Virus record (IMG/VR): IMGVR_UViG_3300020156_000023
Coordinates: 36,411-100,410 of that record
Length of the DNA stretch: 64,000 nt
Strand: one strand, 5' to 3'
Source of the DNA: a virus
In this document: piece by piece, positions 46,843 to 55,783 of the stretch
Numbering within the stretch: the first letter of the stretch is position 1
Layout: each line of letters begins with the position of its first letter
The notes under the pieces: model-generated
What the model saw: the letters and a program-made list of their open reading frames with translations, nothing else
What the model was told of the DNA's origin: nothing
Databases searched by the model: none
Translations under genes and position numbers: made by a program

Positions 46843-48534
46843 ATGTCAAAATCAAATTCAACATTAGCTGGTAAATTAGGTTCTATACAACCTAAAGAAG
46901 GTTTAGTAGCTGCTAATAATGTACCTACCCCAGACACTAAGAACATACAAGGGTATGATGCATATAAGCAAGATAAGTGGTTAAGATTGTTAACAATGCT
47001 TAATGTACTTAAACTACAACCACAATATTACAGAAGTGAGAGGACAGCACTACAAGAGTTACAAACTCTTATCAAAGAATGTGCTACTGAAGATGCATAC
47101 TTCACATGTCAGTGTATAGTATGGTCAAGATGTTTAGGGGAAGGTATGAGAACTATTTCTCATGCTGCTTCTGTATTTGTAGCACCATACATTTCAGGAC
47201 AAGAGTTCTCTAAGAGGTTCTATGGACCATGGAACAAGAAAGAGAAAAAAGGTGGTGTGATTTATAGGCCAGATGATATGAATGAGATATTACAAGGTTT
47301 TGTAGCTCTAAATGGAGAATACAAAACTACAACTGTAACAAATCATACTACTGGTGTTTCAGACACTCAGGTAGATATCTCAGGTACAAAGTTAACTAAT
47401 GCTATGAAGAAAGGATTTAAAGCAGCCATTGAGAGTCTTGACTCTTATTCATTGCTTAAGTATAAGTCCTCTCTGATAGATGTTATAAACCTTGTACATC
47501 CTAAATCATCAGACTCTCAGGCTACAGTAGAGGTGGATGGAGAAACTGTCTATACTATTGATGCTATAATGAGAGGAATGAATGTTTCTGCTAATACTTG
47601 GGAAGTAAACCAAGGAGAGGCAGGTCAAATTGTTTCTAAAGCTGTCAAGGAAGGTAAAATCACTGAAGAGGAAGCTAAAGAGGTATTAACTCAAGCTAAA
47701 GCAGATAATTGGGAAGAGATGCTTAATGAAGGTAAATTACCTATATTAGCAACTCTTAGGAACTTAAGGAACATCCTTAAAACTAATCCTAAAAGTGAAA
47801 CAATTAAGAAATTGTGTGAACTTGTATCTAATCCTACCTTGTTAAGACAAGGTAAGATAATGCCATATCAGATTGATATGGCTAATGAGATTATGCTTAC
47901 TGAGTTTAGTGGCTCTACTGCAAGGACTGTATCTAAAGCTTTAGCTGAAGGTTATGAACTTGCTGTGCCTAATTTAGCAGAGTTATTACCAGGTAATAAT
48001 GTAGTGTTCTTAGATATGTCAAACTCTATGACTTGGCATAAAGTTAGGGTTAATGGTAAAGAAGGCTCTACTACTCCTGCAGATAAAGCATGTCTTATTG
48101 CTGCAACTATAGCTAAGGCTACTGGAGCTGATATTATGATATTTGGTACAAGTGCTAAGTATGTACAATATAACCCTAATACGGATGTATTTACATTAGC
48201 TAAGCAATTGAATAATGCCAATATGGGTGGTACTGATTTATCTACAGCGTGGAAATTAGCTAAATCATCAGGTAGGAAATATGATAGAGTATTTATCTTA
48301 TCTGATAATGAGGTTAACACAGGAAATACCTATAATGCTTATAGGGACTATATGAGTAATATGGGTAATCCGTATGTATATTCAGTAGACTTAGCAGGAT
48401 ATGGTACTAATGCTATTGCTGGGGATAAAGTAAGGTATTATTATGGGTATGGATTTGCTATGTTTGATGATATAGCAACTTCAGAGTTCAATCCAACTCA
48501 TCACATTGACAAAGTAAAACAAGTAATAATTTAA
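46843..48534 (+). CDS. rsr: Ro60/Rsr-like TROVE + VWA RNA-binding protein
   Basis: N-terminal N..G..AY..D...RL....N.L....YY, LLKY, DVI.L.HPK, ATLRNLRN, I.PYQ; C-terminal MIDAS DMSNS, GGTD, ILSDNE. Confidence 0.88.
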   Translation: MSKSNSTLAGKLGSIQPKEGLVAANNVPTPDTKNIQGYDAYKQDKWLRLLTMLNVLKLQPQYYRSERTALQELQTLIKECATEDAYFTCQCIVWSRCLGEGMRTISHAASVFVAPYISGQEFSKRFYGPWNKKEKKGGVIYRPDDMNEILQGFVALNGEYKTTTVTNHTTGVSDTQVDISGTKLTNAMKKGFKAAIESLDSYSLLKYKSSLIDVINLVHPKSSDSQATVEVDGETVYTIDAIMRGMNVSANTWEVNQGEAGQIVSKAVKEGKITEEEAKEVLTQAKADNWEEMLNEGKLPILATLRNLRNILKTNPKSETIKKLCELVSNPTLLRQGKIMPYQIDMANEIMLTEFSGSTARTVSKALAEGYELAVPNLAELLPGNNVVFLDMSNSMTWHKVRVNGKEGSTTPADKACLIAATIAKATGADIMIFGTSAKYVQYNPNTDVFTLAKQLNNANMGGTDLSTAWKLAKSSGRKYDRVFILSDNEVNTGNTYNAYRDYMSNMGNPYVYSVDLAGYGTNAIAGDKVRYYYGYGFAMFDDIATSEFNPTHHIDKVKQVII

Positions 48535-49665: not shown

Positions 49666-50041
49666 GGGGGTGACTGGTTTTGACAGCTAAGAGTAGGTAA
49701 TAATATTCAGCAGTCAGTGATGACTTAAAACATTGAAGGTGAAATAATTAAATGGCAACATTGATAATACACAAGTAGAAGCTAACATGACTGTAGTACA
49801 CAACATATTAAATGGTGGTTCGTATGAAGGTCAACTCAAAGGAGAAGATGATTTAGTTACATCTAAAGGAACTTTTGTTAAAACAAATATGTTAGTAGCT
49901 GCCTAAGCTATAAATAGAAGAACACAACACATAGGGATTATGGATTACTAATGTTCCTCTCAATACATTAGAACAATAAGCTGTATACAATATTATTAGT
50001 TGAAAATAGTTTGGACAGGAGTTCGACTCTCCTCACCTCCA
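49666..50041 (+). ncRNA. ssrA: tmRNA
   Basis: 5' GGGGGTGACTGGTTTTGAC; 3' GACAGGAGTTCGACTCTCCTCACCTCCA; G3-U70; tag frame ending LVAA-stop (49754-49906). Confidence 0.92.
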
Positions 50042-50046
50042 CAAAT

Positions 50047-50121
50047 AGTACCTCAGCATATTTGGTGTATGACGCTACCCTGTCACGGTAGAGATTGCGG
50101 GTTCGAATCCCGTAGGTACTG
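50047..50121 (+). tRNA. tRNA-Asp(GTC)
   Basis: AGTACCT/AGGTACT acceptor; CTACC-ctGTCac-GGTAG. Confidence 0.85.
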
Positions 50122-50122
50122 C

Positions 50123-50209
50123 TAAAGAGTAGTAACACATAAGATACTTCGAAATCAAATTTTTACTTTGGCAATTCAAAAAACAATCTTATGTAATTTT
50201 CTCTCTTTA
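50123..50209 (+). ncRNA. Y-RNA-like element 1 (minimal)
   Basis: TAAAGAG/CTCTTTA, TAGTAAC loop, ACATAAGAT/ATCTTATGT, ACTTCG. Confidence 0.65.
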
Positions 50210-50217
50210 TTTTTAAT

Positions 50218-50289
50218 GCTGGATTAACTCAACGGTAGAGTACTTCACTTGTAATGAAGAGGTTATAAGTTCGAATCTTATATTCAGCT
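50218..50289 (+). tRNA. tRNA-Thr(TGT)
   Basis: Cloverleaf; CTTCA-ctTGTaa-TGAAG. Confidence 0.9.
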
Positions 50290-50310
50290 CAAACTTTTAA
50301 ATATATAATT

Positions 50311-50403
50311 ATGGAAGGTTTTATTGTAATACTTGCTGTTTTACTTTTTATAGGATTTGCTTTAACATTTAATGATGATGATTCAGGACCTCATATGACT
50401 TAA
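50311..50403 (+). CDS. Small membrane peptide (30 aa)
   Basis: MEGFIVILAVLLFIGFALTFNDDDSGPHMT. Confidence 0.45.
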   Translation: MEGFIVILAVLLFIGFALTFNDDDSGPHMT

Positions 50404-50411
50404 AATTAAAA

Positions 50412-50484
50412 GCCCTTGTAGCTTAAATGGAAAAGCCACACCCTTCTAAGGTGTTGAGTACAAGTTCGAATCTTGTCAGGGGTT
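50412..50484 (+). tRNA. tRNA-Arg(TCT)
   Basis: ACACC-ctTCTaa-GGTGT; T-arm. Confidence 0.88.
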
Positions 50485-50489
50485 CACAT

Positions 50490-50697
50490 AGAGTGGTTAG
50501 GAATAGGTTACTTCGTAAACAATATAAAGGCAGAGTCTTAGGACTCAGAGACTATATAAGTTTCAATTAACTACGTGTAGTAACACGTTGCGAAATGAGG
50601 TTAACTTATGGGTTACTTCAACTATAAGGGAAGTTATACTCCCTAAGAGTATAATGGTATGGCATTATCTATACAACCCTATTCCTTCATTCCCTCT
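50490..50697 (+). ncRNA. Y-RNA-like element 2 (multi-hairpin payload)
   Basis: AGAG/CTCT, TGGTT loop, AGGAATAGG/CCTATTCCT, TTACTTCG. Confidence 0.65.
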
Positions 50698-50703
50698 TAA
50701 AAT

Positions 50704-50779
50704 TGGTGTGTAGCATAGCCTGGCCTAATGCAGTAGACTGTTAATCTACCTATCGTAAGTTCGAATCTTACCACACCAG
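50704..50779 (+). tRNA. tRNA-Asn(GTT)
   Basis: GTAGA-ctGTTaa-TCTAC. Confidence 0.9.
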
Positions 50780-50785
50780 CAATTA

Positions 50786-50857
50786 GTCCTATTAGCTCAG
50801 GGGTAGAGCAGGAAGCTCATAACTTTCAGGCCATTGGTTCAAATCCAGTATAGGACA
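50786..50857 (+). tRNA. tRNA with CAT anticodon (elongator Met or Ile2)
   Basis: GGAAG-ctCATaa-CTTTC; identity cannot be resolved by eye. Confidence 0.8.
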
Positions 50858-50863
50858 CAATTT

Positions 50864-50937
50864 GCGTGCAGTAGCTCAATTGGTAGAGTAGTAGTCTCCA
50901 AAACTATTGGTTGTAGGTTCGAGTCCTACCTCACGTG
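50864..50937 (+). tRNA. tRNA-Trp(CCA)
   Basis: GTAGT-ctCCAaa-ACTAT; bulged C in the acceptor stem. Confidence 0.8.
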
Positions 50938-51048
50938 CTAATATCTGTTATTTTACCGATAATTCAATTTATCGTATAAATGACCGATAAACTAGTAGAT
51001 TAAGTTATTCTGTGGCTCTACAAGATGTGCACATCTACACGGAAGCAT

Positions 51049-51123
51049 GCATCCTTAACTCAGTCTGGCCAGAGTGTTTCCCTTACATGGAAAAAGTCCT
51101 AGGTTCGAATCCTAGAGGATGTA
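51049..51123 (+). tRNA. tRNA-Val(TAC)
   Basis: TTTCC-ctTACat-GGAAA. Confidence 0.88.
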
Positions 51124-51203
51124 CTAAATTTTATCGGTATGGAACTATTAATAGGCACAATGGTTTTAATTATACTTGCATTCATAGCGGGTATGTCAAG
51201 TAG

Positions 51204-51276
51204 GGACAGATAGCAAAGCAGGTCTATGCATTGGTCTGAAACACCAGGGATGAAGGTTCGAGTCCTTCTCTGTCCA
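51204..51276 (+). tRNA. tRNA-Phe(GAA)
   Basis: TTGGT-ctGAAac-ACCAG. Confidence 0.88.
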
Positions 51277-51277
51277 C

Positions 51278-51420
51278 AATACTAATAGTAAGACATTAAG
51301 TTACTTCGCAACACTTTTAATGTTAAGGTCATAGGTTCGAATCCTATACTATGTTTATACATGGTTAGCTCAGTTGGTAGAGCATAGAAAAATACACTTA
51401 AAGTCAAGTTCTTTAGTATT
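51278..51420 (+). ncRNA. Y-RNA-like element 3 with a circularly permuted tRNA-Lys(UUU)-like domain
   Basis: Shared scaffold; inside it the order is anticodon arm, T arm, closed acceptor stem, D arm. Confidence 0.8.
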
Positions 51421-51424
51421 AATT

Positions 51425-51507
51425 GGGATGTGAAAGCCATTTGGATATGGCAGCCTGACTGTAAATCAGGTCTTTTCGGGGGAGTGGTTCGAGTCCATCA
51501 CATCCCA
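51425..51507 (+). tRNA. tRNA-Tyr(GTA)
   Basis: CCTGA-ctGTAaa-TCAGG, variable arm. Confidence 0.85.
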
Positions 51508-51517
51508 CAATTATTCT

Positions 51518-51601
51518 AGCGTGGTAGTCAGTAGTTGGAAGCTTGTAAGGCTCATAACCTTATGTCGTAAGACCCCGTGAGTTCGAGTCTCACCCACGCT
51601 A
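51518..51601 (+). tRNA. tRNA-Met(CAT), initiator-like, with extra variable hairpin
   Basis: TAAGG-ctCATaa-CCTTA; GTC-gtaa-GAC in the variable region. Confidence 0.75.
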
Positions 51602-51613
51602 CAATAATCTTTT

Positions 51614-51689
51614 AGAGTAATGGACTAAATGGGTAAGTCACTTGCTTTGGGAGCAAGGTATCATGCAGGTTCGAATCCTGCTTACTCTA
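51614..51689 (+). tRNA. tRNA-Pro(TGG)
   Basis: CTTGC-ttTGGga-GCAAG. Confidence 0.88.
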
Positions 51690-51705
51690 CTAAATTTTTA
51701 TTATT

Positions 51706-51900
51706 ATGAATTATATTGAACAAGAAATTCAAGAAGCATTAGAAACTCAGCTTACTCTAATTAGAGCTGTTATTGCTAATGATGAATTAAGAAAATTAAA
51801 TGCTGAGGCTATAAAACTATCTTATGACAGTTTTATAGAGCAAGGATTTAGTAATGATGATGCTATTAGGTTAGTTTGTGCATCTATCAAAAAAGTCTAA
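51706..51900 (+). CDS. Hypothetical protein
   Basis: 64 aa; Y..F...GF....A..L motif. Confidence 0.65.
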   Translation: MNYIEQEIQEALETQLTLIRAVIANDELRKLNAEAIKLSYDSFIEQGFSNDDAIRLVCASIKKV

Positions 51901-51910
51901 TCAGACAGAT

Positions 51911-51984
51911 TCCTCTATGGCCAAATTGGTTAAGGCACCTCACTTTTAATGAGGGGATTTCAAGTTCGAGTCTTGATGGAGGAA
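51911..51984 (+). tRNA. tRNA-Lys(TTT)
   Basis: CCTCA-ctTTTaa-TGAGG. Confidence 0.9.
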
Positions 51985-51991
51985 CAACAAT

Positions 51992-52065
51992 GCCCTTGTA
52001 GCCCAACTGGTAGAGGCAATAGATTTAGGCTCTATGTAGTGAGAGTTCGAATCTCTCTGAGGGTA
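51992..52065 (+). tRNA. tRNA-Leu(TAG), short variable loop
   Basis: ATAGA-ttTAGgc-TCTAT. Confidence 0.8.
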
Positions 52066-52067
52066 CT

Positions 52068-52155
52068 AAAATTTATATCGTGGGTAGTAATAAACTCACT
52101 GAGTCTTGCAGGACTCGGAAGATTTCACTGCAATGAAATGATAGATATAAATTTT
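52068..52155 (+). ncRNA. Candidate four-way-junction RNA
   Basis: 12-bp closing stem around three hairpins. Confidence 0.45.
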
Positions 52156-52168
52156 TAATTTAAAATAT

Positions 52169-52242
52169 GCCCCTGTAATCCAATTGGCAGAGATAAAGGT
52201 CTTAAACACCTTCCAGTTTTGGTTCGAATCCAAATAGGGGTA
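52169..52242 (+). tRNA. tRNA-Leu(TAA), short variable loop
   Basis: AAGGT-ctTAAac-ACCTT. Confidence 0.82.
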
Positions 52243-52250
52243 CAAATTAT

Positions 52251-52334
52251 AGTAGGTATCTGGCAGGATGAAGAGCTTGTCTTGAAAACAAGTATTGGGT
52301 AATACCAATGGGAGTTCGAGTCTCCCACCTACTA
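52251..52334 (+). tRNA. tRNA-Ser(TGA)
   Basis: CTTGT-ctTGAaa-ACAAG, long variable arm; weak D arm. Confidence 0.78.
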
Positions 52335-52338
52335 CAAA

Positions 52339-52461
52339 TATCCTGAACCTCTGAATCTACGAAATAGTGTTGCTTTGTAGTAACATGTTTAGTTAAGTAG
52401 AGTATACTCAGATAAGCTCAGCAGGATAGTACAAGATATAAAGAGGTTGAAAGTCTTGTAC
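52339..52461 (+). ncRNA. Candidate pseudoknotted RNA
   Basis: TATCCTG/CAGGATA, GTACAAGA/TCTTGTAC and crossing AACCTCT/AGAGGTT. Confidence 0.55.
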
Positions 52462-52467
52462 ATTTAT

Positions 52468-52554
52468 AGAGGATAGGTAGATATTGGTTTGCTACACTTA
52501 CCTGCTAAGTAAGACTTGGTTAAACAAGTGAGGGTTCAATTCCCTTGTCCTCTG
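52468..52554 (+). tRNA. tRNA-Ser(GCT)
   Basis: CTTAC-ctGCTaa-GTAAG, variable arm, G73. Confidence 0.85.
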
Positions 52555-52560
52555 CAATAT

Positions 52561-52633
52561 ACAGATATAGCTCAATTGGTGGAGCATCTCACTGATACTG
52601 AGAAGGCTATAGGTTCAAGTCCTATTATCTGTA
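52561..52633 (+). tRNA. tRNA-Ile(GAT)
   Basis: TCTCA-ctGATac-TGAGA. Confidence 0.88.
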
Positions 52634-52685
52634 CTAAGATTCCAAATTATTTTGTAGTTTGGAATCTCTTCTTTATCTTTACATC

Positions 52686-53102
52686 ATGGAAACAAAAATA
52701 TGTAGCAAATGTAAAGAAGATTTACCAGTTGAACAATTTTCAACTAAAAAAGGTAAACTACAGAGTTATTGTAAGTCTTGTCACAAAGAGTATAGACAAC
52801 AACATTATATTGACAATAAACAAAAATATATTGATAAAGCTGCTCAATATAGGAAAGAGTTTTATAAATGGTTTGAAGAACTTAAGAAAACTTTAAAATG
52901 TCAATCTTGCGGAGAAGATAGATATTGGGTTCTTGATTTTCACCATATTGATTCACAAACTAAAGATAATGAAGTTTCTAATTTAGTTAATACTTGTAGT
53001 AAAACTAAGGTATTAGAAGAGATTGATAAGTGTAAGGTATTATGTAGTAATTGTCATAGAGATTTACATTATCAAGAAAAACAAATGCAGTATATAGCTT
53101 AA
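52686..53102 (+). CDS. HNH endonuclease with N-terminal Zn finger
   Basis: CSKC, CKSC, CQSC, LDFHH, CSNCH; ATG at 52686 follows a promoter-like TATCTTTA. Confidence 0.85.
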   Translation: METKICSKCKEDLPVEQFSTKKGKLQSYCKSCHKEYRQQHYIDNKQKYIDKAAQYRKEFYKWFEELKKTLKCQSCGEDRYWVLDFHHIDSQTKDNEVSNLVNTCSKTKVLEEIDKCKVLCSNCHRDLHYQEKQMQYIA

Positions 53103-53158
53103 CTGGTAAAGCACTGGTCTTCCAAATCAGGGATGCAGTTCGAATCTGATATGCTGCT
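53087..53158 (+). tRNA. tRNA-Gly(TCC), atypical acceptor/T stems
   Basis: CTGGT-ctTCCaa-ATCAG; U73. Confidence 0.7.
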
Positions 53159-53172
53159 CAAAAATTAATATT

Positions 53173-53322
53173 ATGGTTAAAACAGTTATTAATGGGAATG
53201 AATGTTACATCTATATGAATGGTTCTTTGATTCATAAAACAAGATGTGATAATTCACAATCAGGTGTTACATTTGATGTAATGGCTTACAGAAAGAATGA
53301 TAGTCTCAGTACTATAAAGTAA
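53173..53322 (+). CDS. Hypothetical protein (49 aa)
   Basis: MVKTVINGNECYIYMNGSLIHK... Confidence 0.5.
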   Translation: MVKTVINGNECYIYMNGSLIHKTRCDNSQSGVTFDVMAYRKNDSLSTIK

Positions 53323-53326
53323 AAAT

Positions 53327-53402
53327 GCTGCTTTCGTCTAAATTGGAATAGGACACCACCCTTTCAAGGTGGGTAATGCGAGTTCGAGTCTCGTAGGCAG
53401 TA
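53327..53402 (+). tRNA. tRNA-Glu(TTC)
   Basis: CCACC-ctTTCaa-GGTGG. Confidence 0.9.
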
Positions 53403-53408
53403 CAAAAT

Positions 53409-53501
53409 GCCAGGGTAACTCAGGAAGATTAGAGTGCCTAACATATATTAGGAGTAAAATCTTAAGTTAGGAAGTCGGAGGTTCAAGTCCTTCTCCTGGT
53501 A
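53409..53501 (+). ncRNA. tRNA-like RNA with extended arm and no anticodon loop
   Basis: Intact acceptor, D and T arms; CCTAAC/GTTAGG encloses 23 nt. Confidence 0.7.
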
Positions 53502-53515
53502 CAAATACATATTAT

Positions 53516-53776
53516 ATGGAAACATTATTAGACAGTAATGAGATACAACGCGTGGTATTTCATTACAACAAGAAACACAATGAAGATGTAACAATCCCTT
53601 GTTGGGTGGTAAAACACAAAGGTGCAACTTATTATGTTAATCATCTAGACTCTGAGGTAGGATTTACTACTAAAGAAACTCCAGATAATGAGCATACTAA
53701 AGGAGCCCTACAATTCAGGGGAAAATTAATGATAGTAAAAGAAAATGGAATTACAACAGCTATCATTAGGAACTAA
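53516..53776 (+). CDS. Hypothetical protein
   Basis: 86 aa; FHYNK, TKETPDNEHTKG. Confidence 0.65.
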   Translation: METLLDSNEIQRVVFHYNKKHNEDVTIPCWVVKHKGATYYVNHLDSEVGFTTKETPDNEHTKGALQFRGKLMIVKENGITTAIIRN

Positions 53777-53783
53777 AATTAAA

Positions 53784-53987
53784 ATGAAACTTGAGCAACC
53801 CACATTTATATGCTCAGGTAGAGATGTAAAAGAGTGTTACTATAGAGGTACTATAGTAGGTAAAAATGAGAATGATATAATTGAGATATCCTTCAAATAT
53901 AAAGGTAATTTTATAGTAGGCCACTATAATATTATATTAGAGCATTTTATGGAGGAATATCTAAGAGATATTAAAATTATATCATAA
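53784..53987 (+). CDS. Hypothetical protein
   Basis: Non-overlapping ATG at 53784. Confidence 0.5.
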   Translation: MKLEQPTFICSGRDVKECYYRGTIVGKNENDIIEISFKYKGNFIVGHYNIILEHFMEEYLRDIKIIS

Positions 53988-54001
53988 GTTAATTAGAAGA
54001 A

Positions 54002-54159
54002 GCGCGAGTGGCTGGTTGGAATAAGCGAGTAGGTTGCAAGCCTACTGGATATCTGAAAAGAGTTTATAATGATAATATTAAACAGAAAAAGAGTAAAATC
54101 TTGGGTTAATAGTATAGTTATAAATCGTGTCCATGGAGGTTCGAATCCTTCCTTGCGCT
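54002..54159 (+). tRNA. tRNA-Cys(GCA)-like with 89-nt variable-region insertion
   Basis: GCGCGAG/CTTGCGC, U73, GTAGG-ttGCAag-CCTAC, T arm GGAGG-ttcgaat-CCTTC. Confidence 0.75.
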
Positions 54160-54180
54160 CAACACAGAAGAAATGTTATA

Positions 54181-54335
54181 AACAGTAGTGATAGTTAAGT
54201 TACTTCGAAATCCATCACAAGGAAGAGATTGTCAGTTCGAGTCTGGCCCCCTGCACTAAATATAACGTCATGCAGGGGTAGGGTAATTGGTTAGCCCGCT
54301 TAAAAGAAAACAACACTTAACTTATATTCTCTGTT
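54181..54335 (+). ncRNA. Y-RNA-like element 4 with a circularly permuted tRNA-like domain
   Basis: AACAG/CTGTT, AGTTAAGT/ACTTAACT, TACTTCG; T arm, CCCCTGCA/TGCAGGGG, D arm. Confidence 0.8.
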
Positions 54336-54340
54336 AATTT

Positions 54341-54413
54341 GGGCTTGGAGCATGACTGGTTATGCACTACACTTGCACTGTAGGGTATGTGAGTTCGAAT
54401 CTCATCAGGTCCA
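54341..54413 (+). tRNA. tRNA-Ala(TGC)
   Basis: G3-U70; CTACA-ctTGCac-TGTAG. Confidence 0.9.
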
Positions 54414-54534
54414 CAACATGTTAAGTTTTCTTTGTTTTCACAAAACAAAGTGGTGGAATGGCCTTATTGATTTATGGCCCCAAAAGGTAGTTTCTCTTTC
54501 TCCCTTCATTAATTTGTAAATTGAAAGAGTACAA

Positions 54535-54606
54535 TGCTCCTTAGTATAATTGGTAGTACACTTGACTTTGGCTCAGGTAGTATTGGTTCGAACCCAGTAG
54601 GAGTAA
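54535..54606 (+). tRNA. tRNA-Gln(TTG)
   Basis: CTTGA-ctTTGgc-TCAGG. Confidence 0.88.
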
Positions 54607-54626
54607 CTAATTTAAAATTAAAAAAG

Positions 54627-54881
54627 ATGCGTAAATATGTTTTATTGGTATTGTTAGTTTTAACAACTCTTTGTTCATCTTGTACAGATAATCAAAGAGC
54701 AAGACAATGGGGTGGAACTGAGGAAATAATTCTTCCTAAGAATCATGTCCTTATAACAGCCACATGGAAAAATGATGAAATGTGGATACTTACAAAAGAT
54801 ACTGTAACAGATATCAATTATTTTAAAGAGAAATCTAATTGGGGTGTTTTAGAGGGAACTGTAATTTTCAAAAATAAATAA
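54627..54881 (+). CDS. Lipoprotein
   Basis: MRKYVLL...SSCTDNQRAR.WGG; the track start overlaps tRNA-Gln and was moved. Confidence 0.7.
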   Translation: MRKYVLLVLLVLTTLCSSCTDNQRARQWGGTEEIILPKNHVLITATWKNDEMWILTKDTVTDINYFKEKSNWGVLEGTVIFKNK

Positions 54882-54884
54882 ATT

Positions 54885-55067
54885 ATGCGTAAATTCTATC
54901 CATGGATACCAATAATTGGTATCTTTTTAGTGGCAGGATTATCTTGTAAAGAAGATAGTTCTAAGTTTTATGAGACAAGGCTTAATGAGCCTATGGTCTT
55001 CTGTCTAAGTGCTATAGTACAAGCTGTAGTAGTAGTGGGTTTAGGAATCCTTATAACTTTTAGTTAA
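54885..55067 (+). CDS. Small membrane protein
   Basis: Two hydrophobic segments. Confidence 0.55.
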   Translation: MRKFYPWIPIIGIFLVAGLSCKEDSSKFYETRLNEPMVFCLSAIVQAVVVVGLGILITFS

Positions 55068-55075
55068 AAACACAT

Positions 55076-55148
55076 GGTGGCTATAGTGTTAATGGTAACA
55101 TGCTTGATTGTGGTTCAAGAGTTTTGAGTTCGAATCTCAATAGTCACC
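55076..55148 (+). tRNA. tRNA-His(GTG)
   Basis: G-1:C73; CTTGA-ttGTGgt-TCAAG. Confidence 0.9.
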
Positions 55149-55167
55149 CTATTAAAACCAATTTATT

Positions 55168-55578
55168 ATGAAAAAAGTTTTTTGCACAATTGTGCTTGCA
55201 GTAAGTCTTCTTACTTCATGTCAACCAGAGTCTCCTATCTCTGAGAATCCTTCAAACACTGAATCAGTATACACTTCTTATCAAAGAGAAGAAACTCCTT
55301 TAGTTGTAGTTGAGGAGACTGCTACAGATGTAACTGCTCCAGGATATGTTATTATATATCCACCATTAGAACCTAATGGTAATGAGTATCATATAATCAT
55401 TGATTGTATGGATAAAGGTACAATTGATGGAGATACTCTTGTAAGATATGGTTATGGTACAGGACAGGATGGGAAAAAGTTTATGATAAAAGCTACTACT
55501 TATTACATGCCTAGATTTGGAAAATTCTTTACTAAGTACGAGAGTGTGGCAATACCACCATCTGAGTATGGTTGTTAA
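55168..55578 (+). CDS. Lipoprotein
   Basis: Lipobox LTSC. Confidence 0.65.
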   Translation: MKKVFCTIVLAVSLLTSCQPESPISENPSNTESVYTSYQREETPLVVVEETATDVTAPGYVIIYPPLEPNGNEYHIIIDCMDKGTIDGDTLVRYGYGTGQDGKKFMIKATTYYMPRFGKFFTKYESVAIPPSEYGC

Positions 55579-55602
55579 TTAAAGATATTCTTTGTATCTT
55601 TG
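55572..55602 (+). promoter_or_regulatory. Bacteroidetes-type promoter
   Basis: TTG, 20 nt, TATCTTTG. Confidence 0.55.
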
Positions 55603-55675
55603 TAATATAAAAGCTTTGCCAAGTTAGTATCCATATAAAGAAAAACTTGAGGAACTAACCAAAGCTTTTTAAAAT

Positions 55676-55746
55676 GACTCTGTAGTATAACGGTAGTGCT
55701 TAGGTCTGCAACACCTAAAGTTCTGGTTCGAATCCAGATGGAGTCT
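55676..55746 (+). tRNA. tRNA-Cys(GCA)
   Basis: TAGGT-ctGCAac-ACCTA; U73. Confidence 0.85.
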
Positions 55747-55783
55747 CGACTTTATGTCAGGTATAGAAATTGGTAGGGAGTTT

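What the first reader, a model, noticed from the sequence alone, without database searches (positions are those of the whole stretch)
54181..54335. Second permuted tRNA mimic built on a different tRNA body
Seen: TCC-ATCACAA-GGA (7-nt loop, CAC at the anticodon position), T arm GTCAG-TTCGAGT-CTGGC, acceptor CCCCTGCA (54248-55) pairing with TGCAGGGG (54271-78) across a 15-nt loop, then TA and D arm GGGT..GCCC. The loop begins CTA, the same trailer that follows the discriminator base in several real tRNAs here. The tRNA body differs from element 3. Inference: the scaffold captured a second tRNA junction (3' part, spacer, 5' part) from a tandem tRNA array, which suggests how such mimics arise.
Basis: partly seen in the sequence, partly recalled or inferred. 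Interest (0 to 1): 0.75.

Follow-up and report, generated by a model that had tools for sequence, protein, structure and literature searches.

The report
Phage Y RNA carrying permuted tRNA-Val
This stretch encodes a small RNA that joins a conserved protein-binding "handle" to a complete but back-to-front tRNA; it is one of four partner RNAs of a Ro60-like protein that this phage hides among its tRNA genes, so it is a new variant of the known Ro60/Y-RNA system, not a new kind of thing.

Summary
Positions 54181-54335 fold into a two-helix handle that carries, in order, an anticodon-like hairpin, variable loop, T arm, a 7-bp acceptor hairpin (8 bp with the 73:-1 pair) and a D arm. Rejoined in silico, it reads as a perfect tRNA-Val(CAC).

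A covariance model built only from relatives in other phages finds it at 74 bits (E about 2e-13). The best real tRNA-tRNA junction in the window scores 36 bits.

The acceptor, T and D helices covary across 31 relatives, and the 15:48 tertiary pair switches between G-C and A-U.

The handle (GUAGU, a covarying helix, UACUUCG, then a pyrimidine tail) occurs four times in this window. I found at least 104 high-confidence copies in 59 fetched loci. It travels with a TROVE/Ro60 gene, which here lies at 46843-48534.

So this is a YrlA-type Y RNA. It fails Rfam's YrlA model and, unlike the solved Salmonella YrlA, keeps an anticodon loop.

The acceptor loop begins like this phage's tRNA trailers and ends in U-1. 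[quoted passage not shown]

The tandem-tRNA origin idea is compatible with the data, unproven and already published. This scan has noted the same kind of system on other phage DNA.

The parts
46843..48534 (+). Ro60/Rsr-like protein gene (563 aa), the presumed protein partner
   Evidence: Pfam vWA_Ro60 8.4e-10 and TROVE 1.1e-6, both above their cut-offs. PDB matches: phage phiLo Ro60 9KOP at 7e-9 and Xenopus Ro60 1YVP at 3e-5.
54181..54185 (+). Basal stem, 5' strand; pairs with 54331-54335
   Evidence: Read directly from the sequence. Across the family a perfect 5-bp basal stem occurs in 104 of 153 elements, against 20 of 153 for a shifted control. This stem was not used to find the elements.
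54186..54192 (+). Conserved 5' internal-loop motif (UAGU-R-A type); faces the pyrimidine-rich strand 54323-54330
   Evidence: Conserved in all four window copies and in related phages.
54193..54200 (+). Handle helix, 5' strand; 8 bp with 54315-54322
   Evidence: 65 distinct helix sequences among 104 high-confidence elements.
54201..54207 (+). Invariant heptamer UACUUCG followed by AAA. It contains a CGAA core like the proposed Ro60-recognition motif of bacterial and phage Y RNAs.
   Evidence: The 13-mer around it is identical at 51296 and 54195. Motif as described in Chen 2014 and the phiLo paper.
54211..54223 (+). Anticodon-like hairpin: 3 bp and a 7-nt loop with U33, CAC, A37
   Evidence: In relatives the stem alternates UCC/GGA, UGC/GCA and AGC/GCU (the last read by eye). 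Among the 11 parsed copies, U33 is kept in 10 and R37 in 11.
54224..54225 (+). Positions 42-43; they pair with 54299-54300 (positions 27-28) to complete a 5-bp anticodon stem across the break
   Evidence: Both outer pairs form in 10 of 11 class-1 relatives, with covariation CG/CG, CU/AG, UA/UA. Not required by my search script.
54226..54230 (+). 5-nt variable loop; U48 partners A15
   Evidence: The 15:48 pair is A-U in 15, G-C in 15 and A.A in 1 of 31 relatives.
54231..54247 (+). T arm
   Evidence: T stem paired in 100% of cells; 4 of 5 pairs covary.
54248..54278 (+). Acceptor hairpin: 3' strand 54248-54254, A73 at 54255, loop 54256-54271 (starts CUA, ends U-1), 5' strand 54272-54278
   Evidence: The 7 pairs are 95-100% kept, with both sides changed in about half of the relatives.
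54279..54298 (+). U8 A9, D arm (54281-54297), G26
   Evidence: U8 in 30 of 31, A14 in 31 of 31, D stem 95% paired.
54301..54314 (+). A-rich 3' linker back to the handle
   Evidence: An A-rich strand ending near ACA/AAC precedes the 3' helix strand in the family.
54315..54335 (+). Handle helix 3' strand (54315-54322), pyrimidine-rich tail (54323-54330), basal stem 3' strand (54331-54335). tRNA-Ala starts at 54341.
50125..50207 (+). Sister handle RNA with a short 35-nt payload and no tRNA module
50489..50698 (+). Sister handle RNA with a payload of about 160 nt that is not tRNA-like
51281..51417 (+). Sister handle RNA with a permuted tRNA-Lys(UUU) body and a closed 4-nt acceptor loop
   Evidence: Rfam YrlA 34.9 bits, below the gathering score of 69. 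R1 74.4 bits. Unpermuted, it is called tRNA-Lys.

Best explanation
Positions 54181-54335 encode a YrlA-type Y RNA, a partner RNA of the phage's own Ro60-like protein.

Step 1 (inferred). It is transcribed with the tRNA array on the + strand. Its outer ends are set by the enzymes that release the neighbouring tRNAs; tRNA-Ala begins 5 nt after it.

Step 2 (shown by comparison). It folds into a handle plus a complete tRNA-Val(CAC) fold. The handle is a basal stem, a conserved internal loop, a covarying helix and the UACUUCG/A-rich loop. The strand of the tRNA fold is interrupted between positions 28 and 29 of the anticodon stem, which is where the handle is attached.

Step 3 (inferred from co-occurrence and from the CGAA-type motif). 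Ro60 binds the handle.

Step 4 (inferred). The tRNA-shaped module is the effector end. It brings a tRNA-recognising host factor to Ro60, or offers that factor a bait, while the RNA gates Ro60's ring. This matches what is proposed for bacterial YrlA.

Step 5 (inferred, about even odds). This copy has a 7-bp acceptor stem, A73, a tRNA-like trailer and U-1 before G+1. RNase P therefore probably opens the acceptor loop, and host enzymes probably trim the 3' end and add CCA. That would give a two-piece RNA held together by the handle and the acceptor helix, as demonstrated for M. smegmatis YrlA.
For: Family membership. Model R1, built from 29 relatives in other phages, hits B at 74.0 bits and its sister at 74.4 bits. 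The next hit is a real tRNA-Lys/tRNA-Leu junction at 35.7 bits.

Fold.
- T, acceptor and D helices are 95-100% paired, with 204 both-sides-changed cells against 65 expected (0 of 500 shuffles).
- The Levitt pair 15:48 covaries 15 A-U to 15 G-C. U8, A14 and G18 are near invariant.
- Unpermuted B is called tRNA-Val(cac) by ARAGORN with all stems perfect.

Handle.
- Exact 13-mer shared with the sister element.
- Covarying long-range helix and basal stem.

Ro60 link.
- A TROVE + vWA_Ro60 gene lies 5.6 kb upstream on the same strand.
- TROVE is present in 17 of 28 contigs with complete handle RNAs, and in 6 of 6 that are at least 90% complete.
- It is present in 5 of 5 newly checked contigs carrying B-class copies (7 of 7 counting two contigs already scored).
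- It is present in 2 of 28 control contigs.

Processing.
- 29 of 34 long acceptor loops begin N73-C-(C/A/U)-A.
- 22 of 34 end in U-1, and 22 of 34 have G+1.
- Precedent in Chen et al. 2014, PMC4201824: a YrlA with a 7-bp acceptor stem is cut by RNase P and receives CCA in vivo.
Against: - There are no expression, binding or cleavage data. The phage is uncultured; the closest deposited phage Ro60 is 29% identical.
- Rfam's YrlA model does not report B even at E up to 10.
- Folding energy alone is unremarkable, z = -1.5.
- My set of relatives was collected with scripts that required the T, acceptor and D helices. The helix counts are therefore inflated. The unselected evidence is the 15:48 pair, the 27-28/42-43 pairs, the basal stem and the leave-out model.
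- The U-1:A73 pair makes an 8-bp stem, which could shift or weaken RNase P cleavage.
- The phage encodes no CCA-adding enzyme or RtcB, so any maturation would depend on the host.
- The two conserved 5' motifs are complementary to each other, and RNAalifold prefers that local hairpin on a sequence-only alignment. That pairing shows no compensatory changes.
Confidence: 0.8

Rival explanations
1. A genuine circularly permuted tRNA-Val(CAC) gene. The handle would be excised, the two ends ligated at positions 28/29, and the acceptor loop opened, yielding a decoding tRNA as in red-algal permuted tRNA genes.
For: Unpermuted, it is a flawless tRNA-Val(CAC). From my own recollection of E. coli ValRS identity elements, it has A35, C36 and A73. 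The phage otherwise has only tRNA-Val(UAC). The loop looks like a trailer plus leader.
Against: Wang et al. [quoted passage not shown] I saw no bulge-helix-bulge motif at the junction. The handle is a conserved, covarying, Ro60-linked structure that also carries non-tRNA payloads and closed-loop mimics, which argues for a stable RNA and not an intron. The phage has no RtcB ligase.
Confidence: 0.03
2. The handle RNAs are real but work with a protein other than Ro60, or with none. For example, they could be processing or stability cassettes of the tRNA operon, or free decoys for host nucleases that attack tRNAs. The Ro60 link would then be only genomic hitch-hiking.
For: 11 of 28 contigs with elements show no TROVE gene, including one that is 62% complete. 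B lies 5.6 kb from the gene, whereas Chen 2014 found nearly all best matches within 4 kb. Binding is untested. The sister mimic copies tRNA-Lys(UUU); from my own recollection, that tRNA is a known target of anticodon nucleases.
Against: All 6 complete genomes with elements have TROVE, against 1 of 6 controls. All 5 short fragments (10-33 kb and one complete genome) carrying B-class copies have it close by. The heptamer has the CGAA core used to spot Ro60 partners. The architecture of long stem plus internal loops is that of Y RNAs.
Confidence: 0.12
3. A decaying relic of a tandem tRNA duplication, with no function of its own.
For: It sits in a tRNA array. Real tRNA-tRNA junctions give partial hits to the same model at 14-36 bits. 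Neither syntenic relative has this payload at this position.
Against: All stems are perfect or G-U only. Tertiary-pair bases are intact and covary in relatives. Distinct acceptor sequences are kept paired in dozens of phages. It scores 74 bits against 36 for real junctions.
Confidence: 0.03

Closest known systems
YrlA-type bacterial and phage Y RNAs (Rfam RF02553; Chen et al. 2014, PMC4201824; Wang et al. 2018, bioRxiv 10.1101/312249; PDB 6CU1)
   Same: The module order is T arm, closed acceptor stem-loop, UA, D arm. The tRNA tertiary-pair bases are conserved and the 15:48 pair covaries. A long terminal stem carries a CGAA-type motif. The gene lies on the same strand near a Ro60/TROVE gene. 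Several Y RNAs occur per genome. Phage examples are known (22 phages in 2014).
   Different: B is not reported by RF02553, and its sister reaches only half the gathering score. The handle sequence (GUAGU, helix, UACUUCG, pyrimidine tail) is not that of the Rfam consensus. B keeps an anticodon stem-loop with U33 and R37, and the break lies at positions 28/29. In the solved Salmonella YrlA the anticodon loop is absent and the stem runs on into the Ro60 module. B is embedded in a phage tRNA array 5.6 kb from the gene.
Mycobacterium smegmatis YrlA (Chen et al. 2014)
   Same: A 7-bp acceptor stem with a sizeable loop. That RNA is cut by RNase P in vitro, and in vivo is cleaved, trimmed and given CCA. 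B has the same determinants (7 bp, A73, U-1, G+1).
   Different: Processing of B is only predicted. B adds an anticodon hairpin and a different handle.
Thermus phage phiLo Ro60 with Yrl1/Yrl2 (NAR 2025, PMC12135203; PDB 9KOP, 9L5Y)
   Same: A phage-encoded Ro60 with several phage-encoded partner RNAs recognised through stem-bulge structure and a CGAA motif. It is the best PDB match of the window's protein.
   Different: As far as the passages I read show, Yrl1/Yrl2 were identified by stem-bulge structure and the CGAA motif, not as tRNA mimics, and they lie upstream of the gene. Protein identity to the window's Ro60 is low.
Circularly permuted tRNA genes of Cyanidioschyzon merolae and some archaea (cited in Wang et al. 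2018)
   Same: The 3' half comes before the 5' half, and the acceptor stem is closed by a loop that carries trailer and leader.
   Different: Those genes mature into decoding tRNAs through a circular intermediate made by the splicing endonuclease and ligase. Here the junction carries a conserved protein-binding handle, and no such pathway has been reported in bacteria.
Two-piece (permuted) tmRNA
   Same: A permuted gene whose tRNA-like domain is opened by processing into two base-paired pieces with a CCA end. A relative's tRNA array even carries a permuted tmRNA.
   Different: B has no tag reading frame or pseudoknots and shows no Rfam tmRNA signal. This phage has a separate standard tmRNA at 49666-50044.

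Membership tests
YrlA (Rfam RF02553) | Scores at or above the family's gathering score (69 bits) with the curated covariance model | tested here: not met
   B has no YrlA hit even at E up to 10 on a 196-nt search. The sister element scores 34.9 bits. Relatives in other loci score 31-41 bits.
YrlA (Chen et al. 2014 definition) | A tRNA-like domain in the order T arm, acceptor-like stem-loop, D arm, with conserved tRNA tertiary bases including a covarying 15:48 pair | tested here: met
   B has A15:U48, U8, A14, G18 G19 and a UUCGAGU T loop.
YrlA (Chen et al. 2014 definition) | Encoded near a Ro60/TROVE gene on the same strand | tested here: met
   The gene is at 46843-48534 (+). B starts 5.6 kb downstream on the same strand, further than the 4 kb within which nearly all best matches of the paper lay. 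Family-wide TROVE co-occurrence is 17 of 28 against 2 of 28.
YrlA (Chen et al. 2014 definition) | GNCGAA(N)G motif near the 5' end, in or next to the terminal stem | tested here: inconclusive
   B has UUCGAAAU inside the invariant heptamer region. The CGAA core is present, but the flanking G bases are not.
Y RNA in general | Bound by Ro60 in vivo or in vitro | not testable with these tools
   Genomic association only.
Solved Salmonella YrlA fold (PDB 6CU1) | No anticodon loop; the anticodon-stem analogue continues directly into the Ro60-binding stem | tested here: not met
   B has a 7-nt anticodon-type loop on a stem completed in trans. Compare the text of Wang et al. 2018.
Handle-RNA family defined here (model R1 plus handle) | A significant hit by a covariance model built without the window's own copies | tested here: met
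   74.0 bits, E about 2e-13, full length 1-99.
Ordinary tRNA gene | Detected by ARAGORN or Rfam tRNA in its genomic order | tested here: not met
   ARAGORN makes no call there. Rfam tRNA scores 15 bits against a gathering score of 29. It is called tRNA-Val only after computational unpermutation.
Permuted tRNA genes that mature to decoding tRNAs | A bulge-helix-bulge splice motif at the junction and a splicing endonuclease/ligase pathway | not tested
   I saw no such motif by eye. RtcB is absent from the phage. Host enzymes are unknown.

The most novel reading that the evidence does not exclude
B and its many relatives have acceptor loops that read N73-C(C/A/U)A ... U-1. These RNAs may be matured by RNase P, 3' trimming and CCA addition into two-piece, complete tRNAs. 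Each would have a free CCA end and an intact anticodon loop (here Val-CAC) and would stay clamped to phage Ro60 through a handle inserted in the anticodon stem. Such a Ro60-tethered whole tRNA could be aminoacylated. Alternatively it could serve as bait or sensor for host nucleases that attack specific tRNAs, linking Ro60 surveillance to the phage-host conflict over tRNAs. On this reading, phages graft different tRNA bodies onto one handle to match different threats.
Probability: 0.2. Interest if true: 0.75.

Novelty: new variant of a known kind. Interest (0 to 1): 0.45.

Why it matters
Ro60 and its Y RNAs are conserved from bacteria to humans, yet what the tRNA-like end of bacterial Y RNAs does is still unknown. 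This phage family offers a natural experiment: one handle carries many interchangeable payloads. These include no payload at all, elbow-only mimics, whole tRNAs permuted at three different points, and unpermuted tRNA bodies.

Many copies carry built-in hallmarks of tRNA end-processing, namely N73-CCA-like starts and U-1 ends. Some genomes hold both closed-loop and open-loop types.

Three questions become directly testable in an ordinary expression system:
- Is the acceptor end exposed?
- Does the anticodon matter?
- Which host factor is recruited?

The family also supplies sequences for a better covariance model than RF02553, which misses all of these.

Tried and rejected
- Rfam at gathering and at permissive thresholds: no family covers B. 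Only a sub-threshold YrlA hit appears, on the sister element.
- Nucleotide search of deposited phages with the region: only generic tRNA matches.
- Search for a donor tRNA by BLAST of each half of B against the window and all fetched loci. The best non-self match is an 18-nt D-arm match to another handle RNA in L002, so recent capture could not be shown.
- A true orthologue of B's payload in the two syntenic relatives. L002 has the orthologous handle with a 26-nt loop, and L045 has no handle at that position. Gain and loss cannot be told apart.
- RNAalifold on a sequence-only alignment of short-payload handles. It did not recover the long-range helix, because payload lengths shift the register. 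Instead it paired the two conserved 5' motifs. I rejected that hairpin as the main fold: variants in either motif are not compensated, while the long-range helix and basal stem covary.
- Scan of bacterial genomes with the handle-plus-T-loop pattern. Most of the 120 hits are expected by chance at that database size. About ten are complete handle RNAs, and those I checked with Rfam sit in dense tRNA arrays that look like prophages.
- Phage CCA-adding enzyme and RtcB: absent.
- Promoter and terminator scan around B: nothing above background.
- Two papers (PMC10870794, PMC6047535) were not held. The dimeric-tRNA origin model is therefore cited only through Wang et al. 2018.

Full report
**1. The observation**

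- a 3-bp hairpin with a 7-nt loop carrying CAC (54211-54223);
- a 5-nt variable loop;
- a T arm (54231-54247);
- the acceptor 3' strand plus A73 (54248-54255);
- a 15-nt loop;
- base -1 plus the acceptor 5' strand (54271-54278);
- UA;
- a D arm (54281-54297).

Two further helices close the whole: 54193-54200 with 54315-54322, and 54181-54185 with 54331-54335.

ARAGORN and Rfam see nothing there in genomic order; the tRNA model gives only 15 bits. The minimum-energy fold reproduces all these helices, but its energy is not unusual (z = -1.5). The case therefore rests on comparison, not thermodynamics.

**2. Context**

The window is the right-hand 64 kb of a 100-kb uncultured phage. A 563-aa ORF at 46843-48534 is a Ro60/Rsr homologue. 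It matches TROVE and vWA_Ro60 above cut-off, and in the PDB it matches phage phiLo Ro60 and Xenopus and human Ro60.

A tmRNA and 24 tRNA genes follow on the same strand. Four inter-tRNA segments share one "handle":
- a 4-5-bp basal stem;
- a 5' strand of the GUAGU-R-A type, facing a pyrimidine-rich 3' strand;
- a 6-9-bp helix whose sequence differs in every copy but always pairs;
- the invariant heptamer UACUUCG, facing an A-rich 3' strand.

The four payloads are a 35-nt loop (50125-50207), about 160 nt of non-tRNA RNA (50489-50698), a permuted tRNA-Lys(UUU) with a closed 4-nt acceptor loop (51281-51417), and the element under study. The Lys element is the only one that Rfam connects to anything: YrlA at 34.9 bits, half the gathering score.

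**3. Relatives**

Three phages found through the Ro60 protein (73%, 57% and 34% identity) carry the same handle 3-6 times each, in or beside their tRNA arrays.

After filtering for a 3' partner, a pyrimidine tail and a perfect basal stem, 104 elements remain in 59 loci. They have 65 different helix sequences and 64 different basal stems.

The basal stem was not used for detection. It is perfect in 104 of 153 elements, against 20 of 153 in a shifted control. On a plain MAFFT alignment of 19 short-payload copies, the proposed long-range pairs beat all 500 shuffles despite register noise.

**4. Link to Ro60**

TROVE is found in 17 of 28 contigs that hold complete handle RNAs. It is found in all 6 of those that are at least 90% complete, and in all 5 newly checked contigs holding copies of B's own class, four of them fragments of 10-33 kb. 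By contrast it is found in 2 of 28 control contigs that merely matched the 5' pattern, and in 1 of 6 complete ones.

The heptamer contains the CGAA core that Chen et al. 2014 and the phiLo study used as the mark of Ro60 partners. Binding itself is inferred.

**5. The tRNA module**

I aligned 31 handle RNAs with a T arm, acceptor hairpin and D arm, using sequence only, and counted the pairs:
- T stem 100% paired;
- the seven acceptor pairs 95-100% paired, with both sides changed in about half the rows;
- D stem 95% paired;
- the eighth pair (73:-1) paired in only 14 of 24.

My collecting script required these helices, so these counts are inflated. Four checks are free of that bias:
- The tertiary 15:48 pair is A-U in 15, G-C in 15 and mismatched in 1. 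U8 is present in 30 of 31 and A14 in 31 of 31.
- T arms preceded by the handle are followed by an acceptor hairpin plus D arm in 51 of 83 cases, against 70 of 1108 for other T arms in the same loci.
- Model R1, built from the 29 non-window sequences, finds B at 74.0 bits and the Lys element at 74.4 bits. The third hit, at 35.7 bits, is the real tRNA-Lys/tRNA-Leu junction with broken acceptor pairs.
- The whole 100-kb genome has no further strong hit.

**6. A whole tRNA, not just an elbow**

Two bases after the hairpin (54224-54225) pair with the two bases after G26 (54299-54300). Joining the chain there gives a 5-bp anticodon stem, and ARAGORN calls the result tRNA-Val(cac) with every stem intact.

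The same holds for relatives. Both outer pairs form in 10 of 11 class-1 copies and covary. The loops keep U33 (10 of 11) and a purine at 37 (11 of 11), with eight different "anticodons".

The break is therefore inside the 5' strand of the anticodon stem. The solved Salmonella YrlA has no anticodon loop at all.

Other family members are permuted in the variable loop (T, acceptor, D, then a full anticodon arm; 17 copies). Others lack the anticodon arm entirely. Others carry an unpermuted D-anticodon-T body in which part of the heptamer pairs like an acceptor strand.

**7. The acceptor loop**

In 34 copies with loops of 7 nt or more, the first bases after the 7-bp stem are N73 followed by CCA (16), CAA (7) or CUA (6). 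The last loop base is U in 22, and the first stem base is G in 22.

B reads A73-CUA ... U-1/G+1. All 24 tRNA genes of this phage carry C74. 22 of them continue C-U/A-A and none encodes CCA.

The tRNA genes of related phages also mostly lack CCA, yet their Y-RNA modules often encode a true CCA. This points to selection on the loop itself and not mere inheritance from a junction.

With the precedent of M. smegmatis YrlA (7-bp stem, RNase P cleavage, CCA addition in vivo), I consider cleavage of B's loop about as likely as not. The sister element's 4-nt loop must stay closed. The phage has no CCA-adding enzyme or RtcB.

**8. Origin**

No tRNA in the window or the fetched loci resembles B's halves beyond generic loops. 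The best match is the D arm of another handle RNA in L002.

The handle just upstream of tRNA-Ala in L002 has the same basal stem as B but only a 26-nt payload. The syntenic L045 has no handle at that position. Payloads are thus gained or lost within a stable handle, but the direction is unknown.

B starts and ends on the same anticodon-stem position (a duplicated U29). That is what a one-unit window cut from a tandem repeat would give. This fits the dimeric-tRNA origin model, which is already published.

**9. Comparison and verdict**

B works like, and by architecture belongs with, YrlA-type Y RNAs. It fails the curated Rfam model, and it differs from the characterised members in its handle sequence, its retained anticodon loop and its setting inside a phage tRNA array.

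Phage Ro60 genes with Y-like RNAs are known from mycobacteriophages (Chen 2014), phiLo (2025) and jumbo phages (PMC7824862). Earlier notes of this scan describe the same kind of system, with other handle sequences, on other phage DNA. I used them only as leads.

I rate B a new variant of a known kind and of moderate interest.

Noticed in passing
window 54001-54170: A tRNA-like gene with an intact 7-bp acceptor stem, a 3-bp D stem, a GCA anticodon loop and a T arm, but an insert of about 89 nt in the variable-arm position. ARAGORN and Rfam do not call it. A normal tRNA-Cys lies at 55676. It has no handle motif.
   Followed up: no
window 50047-55747 (all 24 tRNA genes): Every tRNA gene has C at position 74. 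22 of 24 continue C-U/A-A (8 CUA, 14 CAA); none encodes CCA. The tRNA genes of related phages show the same habit. This may mark a particular 3'-end processing route.
   Followed up: partly
window 54185-54207 and the same motif in all family members: The two conserved 5' motifs (AGUAA-like and UUACU) are complementary and could form a local hairpin that excludes the long-range handle helix. RNAalifold picks this hairpin. No compensatory changes support it. It could be an alternative conformer, or a DNA-level inverted repeat.
   Followed up: partly
L002:17039-17195 and L045:7838-7977: A further T-acceptor-D mimic, conserved between the two syntenic relatives, with covarying acceptor stems and an N73-CUA loop start. 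It sits on a different scaffold with no UACUUCG heptamer and is absent from the window. R1 scores it 53-54 bits.
   Followed up: partly
L043:5554-5661, L096:3706-3812, L045:3371-3480, L004:3292-3400, L003:3597-3700: Handle RNAs that carry an unpermuted tRNA body (D arm, anticodon arm, T arm). Part of the heptamer pairs with bases after the T arm like an acceptor strand, and the pairing covaries (CUUCG/CGAAG against CUUCU/AGAAG). ARAGORN calls one of them tRNA-SeC(tca).
   Followed up: no
L004:5029-5187: A relative's tRNA array holds a permuted (two-piece type) tmRNA: RF04321, 64 bits, above the gathering score. The window has a standard one-piece tmRNA.
   Followed up: no
L183:196-369 (- strand): A handle is followed by an anticodon-like hairpin, a T arm and an acceptor 3' strand. 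That strand pairs with the 5' end of what ARAGORN calls a full downstream tRNA-Leu(UAG). This could be an intermediate between a tandem tRNA pair and a sealed mimic. I could not find the 3' partner of its handle.
   Followed up: partly
L302:3858-4729 (Nibricoccus MAG, 5.2-Mb contig); L296:4660-4777 (Neolewinella agarilytica DSM 24740): Complete handle RNAs also occur in bacterial assemblies. In L302 there are four in a row inside a dense tRNA array that looks like a prophage. Rfam YrlA scores two of the four (31 and 40 bits, below the gathering score).
   Followed up: partly
window 53409-53502: ARAGORN reports a 94-nt tRNA of undetermined type with a two-base 'anticodon'. Rfam tRNA scores it 40.5 bits.
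   Followed up: no
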